DNA of 64,000 nt, taken from sequence record MZ501074; one strand, 5' to 3'. Each line of letters starts with the position of its first letter. Position 1 is the first letter of the stretch. Below, in pieces: positions 20,159 through 31,472 of the stretch. Source of the stretch: Escherichia phage HildyBeyeler. The notes under the pieces were generated by a model, which made no database searches, was not told where the DNA came from, and saw only the letters and a list, made by a program, of their open reading frames with translations. The position numbers and the translations under genes were made by a program.

Positions 20159-20601
20159 TGGGAGAGAATATTTTAGATGTTTTGCGTAGAGCTTTGCAGG
20201 ATTCTAAGTTTAATGGTTCTGATAAAGAAGTCGCTAAAAGCTATCAGACCATAATCGGGGATCTTCAGCGTATTGATAAAGATTTCATCACTTCTGAACA
20301 ATTTGTGTCTTATCTCAAAGCTCAACTAAAAAGCATTAACCAGATGAAAGCTAAACTTCATGGTCAAGATCTTGATAGTTATAGCTTGCAGTCCGCTCAG
20401 TATGAATACATTCTAAATAAGTGGTTGCAGGAGTATCTGCCTCCTCAGTTATCTGATACTGAGATTCGTAAATACTTTGCAGAATTAGTTAAGCTAAACC
20501 CTGGAATTACAAAAGGTATGCTGATGAAAGCGATTAAGGAAGAATTTCCTGGGCGTTATGATGGTGGTACTGCTGCTCAGATTGCTGGCGAATTTAATTA
20601 A
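20158..20601 (+). CDS. hypothetical protein
   Basis: ORF track. Confidence 0.5.
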   Translation: MGENILDVLRRALQDSKFNGSDKEVAKSYQTIIGDLQRIDKDFITSEQFVSYLKAQLKSINQMKAKLHGQDLDSYSLQSAQYEYILNKWLQEYLPPQLSDTEIRKYFAELVKLNPGITKGMLMKAIKEEFPGRYDGGTAAQIAGEFN

Positions 20602-23412: not shown

Positions 23413-23490
23413 GGTTCTCAAGCTCATATGGTATGAGCACCCAGCTCATAACTGGAAGGTACGTAGGTTCGAATCCTCGGGGAGCCACCA
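23413..23490 (+). tRNA. tRNA with CAT anticodon (Met or Ile2)
   Basis: Acceptor with two GU pairs, D-arm GCTC/GAGC, loop CTCATAA, CCA. Confidence 0.5.
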
Positions 23491-24828: not shown

Positions 24829-24866
24829 CACTGAGCAAGTCCTTTAAAATTTGACTTGCTCAGTGC
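24829..24866 (+). terminator. perfect 14-bp hairpin overlapping next promoter
   Basis: GCACTGAGCAAGTC...GACTTGCTCAGTGC; downstream TTGCTC-17-TATAAT. Confidence 0.5.
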
Positions 24867-25018
24867 CTTAAAACTTGGTATAATAGTTATCTAATTTGGA
24901 AAGTTCTTTTTAAGGTAGTTCTTACTTTAGCAGAGTAAACTTTCGGCAGATGGTGGCAGCCACTTTACCGATATTCCATAGTCAGTGCCGCAAACACTGG
25001 CTACCTTAAAGAGAATTT

Positions 25019-25280: not shown

Positions 25281-25355
25281 GCACCTTTAGCTGAGATGGA
25301 TTAGCGCTTGCCTGAAGAGCTTGAGAGGTTGGATCGTTACCAACGGGGTGCACCA
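25281..25355 (+). tRNA. tRNA, anticodon uncertain (GAA or CTG)
   Basis: GCACCTT/GGGGTGC acceptor, unusual T-loop ATCGTTA, CCA. Confidence 0.45.
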
Positions 25356-27033: not shown

Positions 27034-27155
27034 CAAAATCTCAGTGCAGAACACGGAGCTAGCAATTCGGAAATGCTGACTCATGATAAGCTGCCTATGT
27101 ACTTGCGAAGCGGTCGTGTCCAAGACTCGGACTCTTGCACTGAAAACAATCAAAC

Positions 27156-27276
27156 ATTCTAGCGTGGTTGATGGGGAAACCAGCTTGGCTAGGGCAGAAG
27201 CTCGTTCGATTCGAGTGAAAGAATGGTTCTCGTAAGTCCGCACAAGTGATAACAGGTTCGAGTCCTGTCTAGAATG
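27156..27276 (+). ncRNA. 121-nt tRNA-like structured RNA candidate
   Basis: Perfect 7-bp terminal pairing ATTCTAG/CTAGAAT, T-arm ACAGG-TTCGAGT-CCTGT, internal TTCGATT loop. Confidence 0.35.
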
Positions 27277-27425
27277 ACACTATAAAGTTTACTTATTATG
27301 TAGGTTCCGATAGACCGGCGGGTCTATTCTGGCATTTAAGAGAGGTCTCGCAAACTTCTTTGTCAGCCGTGGGGTTGATAGCCCCCAGGTGGCCTACACA
27401 ATAAGTAAATTTATGAAAAATGTAG

Positions 27426-27454
27426 TTGCTATTTAGCTTAATTCTCTGTATAAT
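27426..27454 (+). promoter_or_regulatory. sigma70-type promoter
   Basis: TTGCTA-17-TATAAT. Confidence 0.6.
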
Positions 27455-27486
27455 ATATTCTATAAAGTGAAGAGAAGGAAAGCAAA

Positions 27487-28062
27487 ATGGAAGGATTTAA
27501 ACCAATACCCGAGTATCCAGAATACTTAGTATCTGAGAAGGGAGAAATATACTCCACTATCAGTAATAAATATTTAAAACCTACCATAAACGGGAGCGGC
27601 TATTACCACTTTGCAGTACGTGAAGATACTAATGAGTATAGATGGCTTCTGCTGCACAGAGTTATATGCAGGGTTTATGGTAATCTCCCCTCTTTAGATA
27701 GTGAAATGGAAGTAGATCATAATGATTGTAATAGGCTTAATATACTCCCTAGTAATTTAGTTGCCAGAGAGAAGAAAGATCATTACGATAAAACTACACT
27801 GGAGAGAGGAAAAACTATAGGGGGCACTAGATGTATAGTCTGTAATAAGAGGATACACTCTGGTCGAGAATACTGCATAAATTGCAGTCCAGTTAAACAG
27901 ACTAAATCCCCAGAGATTACCGCAGAACAGATAGAATATTGGGTATCAAAGTATTCCTGGACTAGAGCTGCAAAAGAGTTAAATTTATCTGATAATGGTC
28001 TACGAAAACGGTATACTAAATTAACAGGTAAATCCCCAAAAGAAATTAAAAAATCAGGGTAA
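27487..28062 (+). CDS. HNH endonuclease inside tRNA cluster
   Basis: EVDHNDCNRLN...N HNH motif plus C-terminal Cys cluster; 3-prime end overlaps tRNA-Pro. Confidence 0.6.
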   Translation: MEGFKPIPEYPEYLVSEKGEIYSTISNKYLKPTINGSGYYHFAVREDTNEYRWLLLHRVICRVYGNLPSLDSEMEVDHNDCNRLNILPSNLVAREKKDHYDKTTLERGKTIGGTRCIVCNKRIHSGREYCINCSPVKQTKSPEITAEQIEYWVSKYSWTRAAKELNLSDNGLRKRYTKLTGKSPKEIKKSG

Positions 28063-28132
28063 GGGCGATAAGGTACGCCACCTCGTTTGGGGCGAGGAAA
28101 TCTTTAGAGTTCGAATCTCTATACCCTGACCA
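28055..28132 (+). tRNA. tRNA-Pro (anticodon TGG)
   Basis: D-stem GGCG/CGCC, stem CCTCG/CGAGG, loop TTTGGGG, CCA. Confidence 0.65.
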
Positions 28133-28138
28133 AACAAT

Positions 28139-28214
28139 TGCGGGTGGGAGGCATAGAGTTCTTCTTAGTCTCATAAGCTAAGTAAGTCCAGGGCAGTACT
28201 GGAACCCGCTACCA
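28139..28214 (+). tRNA. tRNA with CAT anticodon, atypical (1-72 mismatch, non-standard T-loop)
   Basis: Loop CTCATAA; T-arm TCCAG-GGCAGTA-CTGGA; CCA encoded. Confidence 0.4.
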
Positions 28215-28232
28215 ATTTCAAGAAAAACGCAG

Positions 28233-28261
28233 TTGCTTAATGCTTAATTTCTTGTTATAAT
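28233..28261 (+). promoter_or_regulatory. sigma70-type promoter
   Basis: TTGCTT-17-TATAAT; no ORF for 330 bp downstream. Confidence 0.6.
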
Positions 28262-28264
28262 ATT

Positions 28265-28597
28265 TATATAAATTGATGCGAAAATAGCTGCCTAGATACC
28301 AGGTGTATGACGTCTACACTAGCAGAGCTACCGAAAAAGAGATCCCCAGGATAAACGTCGTAGCAAAATTAGTCTGGTATCCATCAATTTAGTTCACTAA
28401 GGTATTAGCTCGACCTAGGACTGGCTGCCAAAAAGCACGATCCCTACGATTCGGGAGAAGTTCTAGATTAGTCCACTAGATTCAGCGGCAACTGAATAGT
28501 GTATTGGGTTTGCGAGATGACGCAGTTCCTTCCGCTCGAAGCGAAGGTGCTGTAGTTACGCCGAGCTAATAGCCTTAGTAAACTAGAAGGAATATCT
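28265..28597 (+). ncRNA. candidate promoter-driven non-coding RNA region
   Basis: ORF-free (longest ORF 15 codons), several imperfect hairpins, no tRNA T-loop. Confidence 0.35.
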
Positions 28598-28861
28598 ATG
28601 TTTGATCTGAAAGATATGGCTAAAAAGTTAATGTCGCAACGCTATCAACAAAGAACACTCCATAAACGAGTTTCCGATATGAAAAAACGTTGCAATAATG
28701 CTAAATATTATAATAGTCTTAATAAACTATCTGATGCAGATCTTGTTAAAACTGAAGCAATATATAATCACTTAGCAGTAGAGTATGATATAGTGAATAA
28801 AGATATTGCTAGGCTAGAAGCTCAGATTGTAGCAACTGTACTTGACATGTACAGGGAATAA
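28598..28861 (+). CDS. hypothetical protein
   Basis: ORF track; GAAGGAA RBS. Confidence 0.45.
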   Translation: MFDLKDMAKKLMSQRYQQRTLHKRVSDMKKRCNNAKYYNSLNKLSDADLVKTEAIYNHLAVEYDIVNKDIARLEAQIVATVLDMYRE

Positions 28862-28872
28862 ATAAAGAATTT

Positions 28873-28951
28873 GGGGGATGGGTCTGCTGGGAGTGGACAC
28901 CTCGCTTGCACCGAGGACATCAGAACGATTCGAATTCGTTATCCTCCACCA
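28873..28951 (+). tRNA. tRNA-Ala (anticodon TGC)
   Basis: GGGGGAT/ATCCTCC acceptor, stem CCTCG/CGAGG, loop CTTGCAC, CCA. Confidence 0.65.
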
Positions 28952-28956
28952 AATAC

Positions 28957-29033
28957 GCGTGATTGATGGAATTGGCATACATACCGTCCTTAGAAGTCGG
29001 GTTTTGAGGGTTCGAATCCCTTGTCACGCACCA
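28957..29033 (+). tRNA. tRNA, anticodon read as TAG (Leu-like) but class I architecture
   Basis: GCGTGAT/GTCACGC acceptor, loop CTTAGAA, T-arm GAGGG-TTCGAAT-CCCTT, CCA. Confidence 0.45.
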
Positions 29034-29157
29034 AATTTGATGGTCAGAGTAAATTAAACCTACTATCTCGGTTGAGCTGTTTTAATGGGTTCGAATCCCA
29101 GCGAGGCGTAACTGCCTGGTGTGATAGAGGCATCATTCCACTAATATTGGAAAACTA

Positions 29158-29496: not shown

Positions 29497-29591
29497 GGTA
29501 GGTCAATCCAACGGCTGGCGCTGGACTCCGACTTGAAATCGGTTGATCGTAGTGATACGGTGTAAGGGTTCGATCCCCTTACCTACCTCCA
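29497..29591 (+). tRNA. tRNA-Ser (anticodon TGA), class II
   Basis: Perfect GGTAGGT/ACCTACC acceptor, loop CTTGAAA, long variable arm, CCA. Confidence 0.65.
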
Positions 29592-29957
29592 AATCTTGAA
29601 GTATGCCGGAATCGGTAGACGGGGCTGCCTAAAAGGTTTATAGGGAACATCCACTCCCTGCAACATACCTCATAAAGCGGCTGAGATAAATGGTCTATCT
29701 CGTGAAGGTTCAAGTCCTTCTGCTTCTTGATACATCTATGGCTCAAAGTGTAACGGTGCTATTTGATGCTCTTGGTAAGACTTCCCCGACATGCGTTCGG
29801 GAGTAAGCTGCTAAGACTAGAGTAGAAGAGTTTCTGAGAGCCGCCACAATTGAAAATTCGTACTCGTCTTGAGCTGCGTGCAATAGGAGATAACTTGATT
29901 AGTATTCTAGAACATGCTAATTGAGGATGGTTTCGCTAACCCTGCGAGTTTTCAATT

Positions 29958-31443: not shown

Positions 31444-31472
31444 TTGCTTTCCCTCTTATTTATTGTTATAAT
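31444..31472 (+). promoter_or_regulatory. sigma70-type promoter
   Basis: TTGCTT-17-TATAAT. Confidence 0.6.

What the first reader, a model, noticed from the sequence alone, without database searches (positions are those of the whole stretch)
28265..28597. Promoter-driven 330-bp non-coding segment
A TTGCTT-17-TATAAT promoter (28233-28261) is followed by 330 bp with no ORF longer than 15 codons and no tRNA T-loop, but with imperfect hairpins (for example CCTTCCGCTCGAAGCGAAGG). This is a candidate sRNA or long 5-prime leader for the downstream gene at 28598.
Basis: partly seen in the sequence, partly recalled or inferred. Interest (0 to 1): 0.5.

Follow-up and report, generated by a model that had tools for sequence, protein, structure and literature searches.

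The report
Phage T5 stable RNA "RNA2H" gene
The segment is this T5-like phage's copy of a small, tightly folded stable RNA (annotated "RNA2H" in phage T5, function unknown) with its own strong promoter and an enlarged hairpin in front of it, so the gene is already catalogued, although its fold and job were never worked out.

Summary
The promoter at 28233-28261 is one of 23 TTGCT-N18-TATAAT promoters in the window, against 0.16 expected by chance. It is followed by about 330 non-coding, strongly folded bases.

The segment is not anonymous. Bases 28403-28574 are 98% identical over the full 172 nt to T5 "rna2H" ("stable RNA with unknown functions"). The promoter matches T5 "P13b". Both are annotated in the T5 and BF23 GenBank records.

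Comparison of homologues from six groups of T5-family (Demerecviridae) phages shows a conserved fold:
- a 22-bp terminal helix with an invariant bulged G;
- four hairpins;
- a pseudoknot that covaries in several versions.

In the 18-sequence alignment, 30 of 49 pairs carry compensatory changes. No Rfam family matches.

Bases 28270-28390 are a leader hairpin that is about 22 nt in T5. Here, and in about 20% of relatives, it is 94 nt longer. It is absent in Klebsiella relatives.

The 87-aa ORF at 28598 is an accessory insertion. Four unrelated ORFs, or tRNA-Ala directly, follow the RNA in other phages. The RNA is therefore not that gene's dedicated leader.

The function remains unknown. I favour a stable RNA cut out of the transcript that acts in trans by binding a protein.

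The parts
28214..28278 (+). Early promoter, homologue of T5 promoter P13b. -35 TTGCTT at 28233-28238; TG at 28253-28254; -10 TATAAT at 28256-28261. The transcription start is inferred at about 28268.
   Evidence: BLAST to the T5 P13b feature gives 95% identity. Annotated as a promoter in T5 and BF23. The motif class is 23 observed against 0.16 expected. Conserved in all relatives. The start site is inferred from spacing and from the extent of the T5 feature; it has not been measured.
28270..28390 (+). Leader hairpin domain, long form. Basal stem 28270-28278 / 28382-28390. Inner stem 28295-28302 / 28374-28381. The part from about 28279 to 28381 replaces the short GAAA-capped tip found in T5, a net gain of 94 nt.
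   Evidence: Inverted repeat I3 is 100% complementary. Folds. The inner stem shows a C-G to U-A compensatory change, with a U-G intermediate. The long form is in 83 records, always at this site, 94-100% identical. T5 has the short form; Sugarlandvirus has none.
28391..28402 (+). 5' strand of the 12-bp outer stem (precursor part, outside the RNA as annotated in T5)
   Evidence: Inverted repeat I2. Compensatory changes in Eos, Sugarlandvirus, Proteus and Providencia homologues.
28403..28574 (+). RNA2H homologue (172 nt), with ends as annotated in T5
   Evidence: 98.3% identity over 172/172 nt to T5 misc_RNA rna2H. Covariance-model score 238 bits.
28403..28412 (+). Helix P1, 5' strand. It pairs with 28562-28571. 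G28572 is an invariant bulge.
   Evidence: Inverted repeat I1. 6 of 10 pairs carry both-side changes in A4. U13-A to A13-U fixes the register and leaves G bulged.
28418..28422 (+). Pseudoknot 5' strand, GGACU. It pairs with AGUCC at 28470-28474 in the H3 loop.
   Evidence: Scripted on the aligned positions: GGACU/AGUCC, GAGCC/GGCUC, GAGUC/GACUC, GAACC/GGUUC, GAACU/GGUUC. Read from cmsearch alignments for PM135 and PSTCR5: GAACC/GGUUU.
28441..28456 (+). Variable hairpin V1 (UCCC/GGGA here). Other lineages carry a hairpin about 25 nt longer.
   Evidence: 3 of 4 pairs carry both-side changes in A4.
28462..28480 (+). Hairpin H3: UCUAG, loop AUUAGUCCA, CUAGA. The loop forms the pseudoknot.
   Evidence: All 5 pairs carry both-side changes in A4. 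PMBT31 and SB13 have UCUGA/UCAGA.
28481..28496 (+). Hairpin H4: UUCAG, loop CGGCAA, CUGAA. The loop motif is conserved (UGGCAA / UGGUAA / UGGCGA).
   Evidence: 4 of 5 pairs carry both-side changes. Loops read.
28497..28511 (+). Conserved single-stranded junction, UAGUGUAUUGGGUUU
   Evidence: Nearly invariant in 33 Markadamsvirinae sequences. AGUGUA..G..UUUG is kept in Eos and Sugarlandvirus.
28512..28561 (+). Long hairpin V2. Base G[C/U/A]G pairs with C[G/A/U]C.
   Evidence: 8 of 14 pairs carry both-side changes. Two sequence types are exchanged among phages.
28573..28584 (+). 3' strand of the outer stem. The 3' end annotated in T5 falls after C28574.
28587..28861 (+). Accessory ORF (87 aa, no family) with an AAGGA ribosome-binding site at 28587-28591. 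It rides on the same transcript and is not part of the conserved RNA.
   Evidence: No PHROG; only a sub-threshold Pfam hit. Absent in T5, BF23, Lindwurm and Sugarlandvirus. Unrelated ORFs occupy the same slot in STyj5-1, Proteus and Providencia phages.
28873..29033 (+). tRNA-Ala(UGC) and tRNA-Leu(UAG), the conserved downstream partners in the P13b transcription unit
   Evidence: Synteny in T5, BF23, Sugarlandvirus and Eos.

Best explanation
This is the gene for the phage T5 stable RNA 'RNA2H', together with its own early promoter (P13b) and, in this phage, an enlarged leader hairpin.

Host RNA polymerase starts at about 28268 and transcribes three things in order:
(i) a 121-nt leader hairpin;
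(ii) the RNA2H domain, which is a compact core of four hairpins locked by a 5-bp pseudoknot and closed by a 22-bp terminal helix with an invariant bulged G;
(iii) an accessory ORF, then tRNA-Ala and tRNA-Leu.

The 172-nt RNA (28403-28574) is released by a staggered cut inside the terminal helix. The annotated ends leave a 2-nt 3' overhang next to the bulged G, which is the geometry of RNase III. The paired ends then protect it from exonucleases, which would explain why it accumulates.

What is shown: homology, synteny, the promoter class, the fold and its covariation, and independence from the ORF.

What is inferred: the start site, the processing enzyme and the function.

For function, I think the most likely case (about 40%) is a trans-acting RNA that binds or titrates a host or phage protein during early infection. 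It would do so through its invariant single-stranded junctions and the conserved H4 loop. The second most likely case (about 25%) is a purely cis-acting role in processing or stabilising the operon transcript.

The confidence given (0.7) is for the statement as a whole. Identity and fold alone I would put at about 0.95, RNase III processing at about 0.55, and the trans-acting role at about 0.4.
For: Identity. 98.3% over 172/172 nt to T5 rna2H, and 95% to P13b.

Promoter class. 23 observed against 0.16 expected.

Structure in 33 close relatives. 99.7% of cells paired, against 28-41% when partners are slid; 13 pairs with both-side changes.

Structure in 18 sequences that include Eos, Sugarlandvirus and Proteus. 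97.1% paired against 31-39%; 30 of 49 pairs with both-side changes.

Pseudoknot. It is kept through several different sequence versions.

Distant homologues found with covariance models. Klebsiella Sugarlandvirus (85 bits), Eos (100 bits), Proteus (38 and 30 bits), Providencia (52 bits).

Independence from the ORF..

Ends. The annotated ends lie inside a 22-bp helix with a 2-nt stagger. The GG/CC pairs at the cut covary to AG/CU in Proteus, so it is the pairing that is kept, not a CCA-like tail.

Not coding. The only ORF of note is broken in relatives, and no ORF lies on the minus strand.
Against: No expression data were available. 'Stable RNA' rests on the GenBank annotation of T5 and BF23, and I could not find the primary paper in the library.

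The mature ends may have been predicted rather than mapped.

One viable isolate, FFH1, has lost the whole core, so the RNA is dispensable at least on its isolation host (E. coli O157:H7).

Nothing in the sequence names a binding partner. No similarity to E. coli DNA was found.

Many compensatory changes come from a few exchanged modules and a few lineages, so the number of independent events is smaller than the cell counts suggest.
Confidence: 0.7

Rival explanations
1. The element works only in cis. It is a processing and stability module at the head of the P13b operon. Its paired 5' end shields the transcript from RNase E, and its terminal helix gives an RNase III entry site that separates the downstream ORF or tRNAs. 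The excised RNA is a stable by-product with no function of its own.
For: It always sits immediately after the promoter and immediately before the next gene. In Sugarlandvirus it lies 2 nt before tRNA-Ala and starts at about +1. Four unrelated accessory ORFs have landed in the same slot, each with a ribosome-binding site 3-4 nt after the helix. Loss of the core in FFH1 keeps the terminal helix.
Against: A processing site needs only the helix. Yet the pseudoknot, the H4 loop motif and two single-stranded junctions are conserved across genera. tRNAs downstream do not need a 5' stabiliser.
Confidence: 0.25
2. It is a dedicated 5' leader or riboregulator of the ORF at 28598.
For: P13b is the only evident promoter for the ORF, and the ribosome-binding site begins 3 nt after the terminal helix.
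Against: The RNA is conserved without the ORF in T5, BF23, Lindwurm, Eos and Sugarlandvirus. Elsewhere it is followed by unrelated ORFs. No terminator or anti-terminator, and no structure that sequesters the ribosome-binding site, was found.
Confidence: 0.05
3. It is a decayed tRNA or tRNA-like remnant, or other non-functional spacer, in the tRNA cluster.
For: It lies among 21 tRNA genes next to tRNA-like stable RNAs. It is deletable in FFH1.
Against: There is no cloverleaf and no T-loop. ARAGORN and the Rfam tRNA model are negative. Widespread compensatory change and invariant junctions indicate selection on the fold. It has its own conserved promoter.
Confidence: 0.04
4. It is a catalytic or ligand-sensing RNA (a ribozyme or riboswitch-like sensor) of an undescribed class.
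For: It has a compact pseudoknotted core with invariant unpaired nucleotides. No known family matches.
Against: There is no expression platform and no cleavage site in an unpaired region. The annotated ends lie in a helix, which is typical of protein nucleases. None of the known self-cleaving motifs was detected.
Confidence: 0.08

Closest known systems
Phage T5 / BF23 'rna2H' (RNA2H, 'stable RNA with unknown functions') and promoter P13b. GenBank AY543070 31808-31979 and 32001-32075; NC_042564 4056-4227.
   Same: Same gene. The 172-nt core is 98% identical, the promoter is the same, and the position ahead of tRNA-Ala and tRNA-Leu is the same.
   Different: The leader hairpin here is 94 nt longer. 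An 87-aa ORF is inserted between the RNA and tRNA-Ala.
Phage T4 small stable RNAs rnaC and rnaD (species 1 and 2 RNA) in the T4 tRNA cluster
   Same: Same situation: stable RNAs of unknown function encoded within a lytic phage's tRNA gene cluster, next to homing-endonuclease genes.
   Different: Not homologous. The covariance model finds nothing above noise in the T4 region. T4 rnaC carries a tRNA-type T arm; RNA2H does not.
The other T5 stable RNAs (RNA1, RNA2, RNAI, RNAIII, RNAIV)
   Same: Same cluster and the same 'unknown function' label. Homologues are present in this window.
   Different: No sequence similarity to RNA2H. RNA1 and RNA2 are annotated as tRNA-like; RNA2H is not.
RNase III processing stems of phage T7 early RNA (from my own knowledge, not tested here)
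   Same: A duplex of at least 20 bp in a polycistronic early transcript. The cut is staggered by 2 nt, and the downstream gene starts just after the stem.
   Different: T7 sites are simple hairpins. Here the duplex closes a 150-nt pseudoknotted core that is itself conserved.
Adenovirus VA RNA I / EBV EBERs (functional analogy only, from my own knowledge)
   Same: An abundant viral RNA of about 160-170 nt with a terminal stem and a pseudoknotted central domain. Those RNAs act by binding host proteins.
   Different: No homology, a different domain of life, and no evidence here for any protein partner.

Membership tests
T5 RNA2H stable RNA | Sequence homology to the annotated T5 rna2H over its full length | tested here: met
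   172/172 nt at 98.3% identity. Alignments.
T5 RNA2H stable RNA | Position directly downstream of promoter P13b and upstream of tRNA-Ala and tRNA-Leu | tested here: met
   Here an accessory ORF is intercalated before tRNA-Ala.
T5 RNA2H stable RNA | Accumulates as a discrete stable RNA in infected cells | not testable with these tools
   Only the GenBank note says so. No paper was found in the library.
T5 RNA2H stable RNA | Shared secondary structure | tested here: met
Any Rfam 15 family | Covariance-model match at or near the gathering score | tested here: not met
   The only hit is osmY at 12 bits, E = 3.6. Nothing on the distant homologues.
tRNA / tRNA-like RNA / tmRNA | Cloverleaf or T arm with a GTTCRANYC-type loop | tested here: not met
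   ARAGORN. Rfam tRNA and tmRNA models.
Dedicated 5' leader of the ORF at 28598 | Co-occurrence of RNA and ORF across relatives | tested here: not met
RNase III substrate | Duplex of about two helical turns, with ends staggered by 2 nt | tested here: inconclusive
   The geometry fits the ends annotated in T5. It is unknown whether those ends were measured, and cleavage itself cannot be tested here.
RNase P / CCA-type end (as in tRNA precursors) | Conserved unpaired RCC(A) after the acceptor-like stem | tested here: not met
   GCC in Markadamsvirinae and Sugarlandvirus, but GCU in Proteus and Providencia, covarying with the opposite strand.
Type III antitoxin RNA | Tandem direct repeats | tested here: not met
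   No tandem array within the RNA; the only tandem repeat in 28100-28900 is two copies of a 7-nt unit in the promoter at 28234-28248.
T4 rnaC / rnaD | Homology | tested here: not met

The most novel reading that the evidence does not exclude
RNA2H may be the founding member of an uncurated family of pseudoknotted RNAs, about 170-215 nt long and absent from Rfam. The family is present in every Demerecviridae group in which I found it (Tequintavirus, Epseptimavirus, Eos-like phages, Sugarlandvirus, Novosibvirus, Priunavirus). In this reading it is an abundant early decoy that binds and neutralises a host protein, for example a double-strand-specific RNase or an RNA-targeting defence nuclease, much as the tRNAs in the same cluster counter tRNA-cleaving defences. 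The 94-nt leader expansion would be a second, recently spread module, possibly derived from a partial duplication of the 5' half of RNA2H.
Probability: 0.2. Interest if true: 0.75.

Novelty: already known. Interest (0 to 1): 0.35.

Why it matters
The gene and its promoter have been in the T5 and BF23 records for years, so finding them here is not a discovery.

Three things appear not to be curated anywhere I could search:
- the fold, with a pseudoknot and an invariant bulged G;
- its conservation well beyond T5, into Klebsiella, Proteus and Providencia phages;
- its modular variation in leader, V1 and V2.

The function of the T5 stable RNAs is still open according to the database records, which still say 'unknown functions'. 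Phage tRNA clusters have recently been linked to escape from tRNA-cleaving defences (background cited in PMC10644984). A conserved non-tRNA partner in the same cluster is therefore a reasonable candidate for a related role.

A practical point also follows. Annotation pipelines place spurious CDSs on this RNA, for example in Tennessee, PMBT31, SB13 and Sugarland. A covariance model would prevent that.

Tried and rejected
Known RNA families. Rfam at permissive thresholds on the window and on distant homologues gave no family. ARAGORN found no tRNA or tmRNA here.

Similarity to other stable RNAs.
- To T5 RNA1, RNA2, RNAI and RNAIV: none. So the 'H' in the name is not explained by homology to RNA2.
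- To T4 rnaC and rnaD: none.
- To E. coli genomes: none.

Literature. I found no paper on RNA2H in the searchable library.

Collection scans. Exact-pattern scans of the metagenome and viral collections returned mostly chance matches.

Structure models.
- RNAalifold's pairing of 28415-28422 with 28459-28466, and of 28474-28478 with 28497-28501, was set aside. The H3 hairpin plus pseudoknot explains the PMBT31/SB13 double changes and the distant homologues with no broken pairs.
- The 3-bp hairpin GCU/AGC at 28424-28436 is not kept in Sugarlandvirus, so I dropped it.
- A possible helix between CAAAAAGCAC and GUGUAU...UUUG cannot be tested, because both strands are invariant and one G is already used by V2.

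Coding potential. The small ORFs at 28303-28392 and 28504-28569 were rejected as coding.

The downstream ORF. The 87-aa ORF has no family and is not related to the ORFs in the same slot in other phages.

Origin of the leader insert. It shows only weak colinear similarity to the 5' 71 nt of RNA2H (9 of 1000 shuffles as good). I kept this as a lead, not a finding.

Other phages searched. Erwinia phage KEY (a 40-kb stretch that is not its tRNA region), Aeromonas LAh_9 and Cronobacter EspYZU12 gave no homologue.

Full report
**Setting.** The window is a T5-like phage genome. It has 21 tRNA genes on the + strand between 20.8 and 32.1 kb. The closest public record is Salmonella phage Tennessee, at 99.8% identity. 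The finding lies inside this tRNA cluster.

**Checking the observation.**
- The sequence shows TTGCTT (28233-28238), a 17-nt spacer and TATAAT (28256-28261), preceded by TG, which makes an extended -10.
- The generic promoter scan did not list it because TTGCTT matches TTGACA at only three positions.
- TTGCT-N18-TATAAT occurs 23 times in the window, 21 of them on the + strand, against 0.16 expected from shuffles. It is therefore the phage's standard early promoter type.
- Downstream there is no tRNA and no ATG ORF of note.
- Two short ORFs with alternative starts exist, of 29 and 21 codons. The longer one is interrupted by a stop codon in most relatives.
- The 333-nt transcript folds far better than shuffles, with z = -3.6.
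- Three long inverted repeats frame the folds.

**What it is.**
- BLAST against phage records hit T5 and BF23 where the depositors annotate 'promoter P13b' followed by 'rna2H: RNA2H, stable RNA with unknown functions'.
- The T5 feature (172 nt) maps to window 28403-28574 at 98.3% identity over its full length. P13b maps to 28214-28278.
- The same call locates homologues of the other T5 stable RNAs in the window (RNA2, RNAIV, RNA1, RNAI, RNAIII).
- In T5 and BF23 the RNA is followed within 20 nt by tRNA-Ala and tRNA-Leu.

**How the window differs from T5.**
- The leader. T5 has a 22-nt hairpin, UGAUGAGGA-GAAA-UCCCCAUCA, between the start site and RNA2H. The window keeps the base of that stem (28270-28278 / 28382-28390) but has about 103 nt in place of the tip, a net gain of 94 nt.
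  - This long form is in 83 of roughly 425 records that carry RNA2H. It is always at this site, 94-100% identical and never annotated as RNA.
  - Its inner stem (28295-28302 / 28374-28381) shows a C-G to U-A exchange with a U-G intermediate.
  - It has weak colinear similarity to the 5' 71 nt of RNA2H, which hints at a partial duplication.
- The ORF. An 87-aa ORF with no family assignment sits between RNA2H and tRNA-Ala.

**Structure, close relatives.** I collected 33 distinct RNA2H sequences from Tequintavirus and Epseptimavirus.
- They are mosaics. The leader is short or long. Hairpin V1 is short or about 25 nt longer, in three versions. Hairpin V2 comes in two main types. These modules occur in many combinations.
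- The helices hold throughout. 99.7% of cells form pairs, against 28-41% when the 3' partners are slid by one to three columns. 13 pairs show changes on both sides.
- RNAalifold proposed a different pairing for the central part. The model with hairpin H3 (28462-28480) explains the PMBT31/SB13 variant (UCUAG/CUAGA to UCUGA/UCAGA) with no broken pairs. The RNAalifold model breaks two pairs.

**Structure, distant relatives.**
- A covariance model built from these sequences found a homologue in Klebsiella phage pzk-kv7 (Sugarlandvirus, 85 bits). It lies directly after a TTGCTA-17-TATAAT promoter with no leader hairpin, and ends 2 nt before tRNA-Ala.
- It also found homologues in further Sugarlandvirus phages and in bacteriophage Eos (100 bits).
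- A second model reached Proteus phages (Novosibvirus, 38 and 30 bits) and Providencia phage PSTCR5 (Priunavirus, 52 bits).
- In the 18-sequence alignment, 97.1% of cells pair, against 31-39% for slid partners. 30 of 49 pairs carry changes on both sides.
- These homologues also fix two details:
  - The register of the terminal helix is U-A changing to A-U, which leaves an invariant bulged G (28572).
  - Five bases of the 5' junction pair with the H3 loop in every lineage. Scripted on the aligned positions, the versions are GGACU/AGUCC, GAGCC/GGCUC, GAGUC/GACUC, GAACC/GGUUC and GAACU/GGUUC. The same pentamers find only 2-3 of 5 pairs in the H4 loop. In PM135 and PSTCR5 I read GAACC/GGUUU from the alignments.
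- The pseudoknot is thus supported by several independent sequence versions.
- Conserved unpaired elements are CCAAAAA(G/A)CAC, AGUGUA..G..UUUG and an H4 loop of the form UGG(C/U)(A/G)A.

**What it is not.**
- No Rfam family matches the window copy or the distant copies.
- It is not tRNA-like.
- It is unrelated to the other T5 stable RNAs and to T4 rnaC and rnaD.
- It has no counterpart in E. coli genomes.
- It contains no tandem repeats of its own.

**Relation to the downstream gene.**
- The ORF at 28598 is present in the window, Tennessee, STP-SP9 and Ace.
- It is absent in T5, BF23, Lindwurm, EscoHU1 and Sugarlandvirus.
- STyj5-1, the Proteus phages and Providencia PSTCR5 each have a different, unrelated ORF in exactly this slot. 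Each has a ribosome-binding site a few bases after the terminal helix.
- The RNA is therefore the constant and the ORF the variable. The RNA is not a dedicated leader, although the ORF clearly depends on the P13b transcript.

**How it probably works.**
- *Shown:* a conserved strong promoter; a conserved fold closed by a 12 + 10 bp helix; ends, as annotated in T5, that fall inside this helix with a 2-nt stagger beside the bulged G.
- *Inferred, processing:* the stagger is the signature of RNase III. The alternative is RNase P plus a CCA-like tail, suggested by the 3' GCC. That is weakened because Proteus and Providencia have GCU, with the opposite strand changed to match. So the pairing is what is conserved.
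- *Inferred, stability:* fully paired termini would protect the RNA from 5'-end-dependent RNase E and from 3' exonucleases, which would account for its stability.
- *Inferred, function:* a mere processing site would need only the helix. Conservation of the pseudoknot, the junctions and the H4 loop across genera points to a function of the folded core. I rate a trans-acting protein-binding or decoy role as most likely (about 40%), a purely cis processing or stability role next (about 25%), and other options lower.
- *Against any essential role:* phage FFH1 has lost the core through a deletion between two GCTCGA repeats and keeps only the helix.

**Verdict.** The feature is real. The gene is already annotated in T5 and BF23, so novelty is low. 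The fold model, the family's breadth and the leader expansion are modest additions.

Noticed in passing
window 27155-27279, 27298-27400, 29595-29739, 29740-29846, 29851-29956: Homologues of the other T5/BF23 'stable RNAs with unknown functions': RNA2, RNAIV, RNA1, RNAI and RNAIII, at 85-100% identity. None is similar to RNA2H.
   Followed up: partly
window 27487-28062: This 191-aa ORF is an HNH homing endonuclease (NUMOD4 + HNH_3; PHROG 59). It is inserted between promoter P13a (27407-27481) and tRNA-Pro, and its last codons overlap the start of tRNA-Pro at 28055.
   Followed up: partly
window, 23 sites (for example 27426-27454, 24856-24884, 31444-31472): TTGCT-N18-TATAAT occurs 23 times against 0.16 expected, 21 of them on the + strand. 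This is the phage's early promoter family. Several sites also match the T5 P13a and P13b features by BLAST.
   Followed up: partly
window 23413-23487, 25281-25352, 29497-29587: Rfam tRNA-model hits (38, 33 and 38 bits) that ARAGORN did not call. They are probably additional or atypical tRNA genes.
   Followed up: no
window 29034-29157: A 124-nt non-coding stretch after tRNA-Leu that contains a T-arm-like GGGTTCGAATCCC. A similar stretch follows tRNA-Leu in Klebsiella phage pzk-kv7 (L264 about 20455-20560). It may be an unannotated tRNA-like RNA.
   Followed up: no
L043 (phage FFH1, NC_024139) 601-651: A natural deletion of the whole RNA2H core between two GCTCGA direct repeats. It leaves a 68-nt hairpin made of the terminal helix and the distal half of V2.
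   Followed up: partly
L011 (phage PMBT31), leader hairpin: The short leader hairpin has the loop UUUC instead of GAAA on an identical stem. This is the exact reverse complement of the hairpin, as if the palindrome had been inverted at the DNA level.
   Followed up: no
L003 1678-1767; L011/L012 444-587 and 661-765; L284 382-570: Public annotations place hypothetical-protein CDSs on either strand across the leader or RNA2H. These are most likely spurious calls on a structured RNA.
   Followed up: partly
L287 (Proteus phage vB_PMC-PL1) 3190-3330: The 140 nt upstream of the Proteus RNA2H homologue are non-coding and G+C-rich, with long hairpins (for example GGGGTTGG...CCCAACC). No T5-type promoter is evident. 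This may be another structured RNA.
   Followed up: no
window 28842-28870: A TTGACA-17-AAGAAT promoter-like site at the 3' end of the 87-aa ORF (its AAGAAT lies just past the stop codon), immediately before tRNA-Ala. It could be chance, or an internal promoter that restores tRNA expression after the ORF insertion.
   Followed up: no
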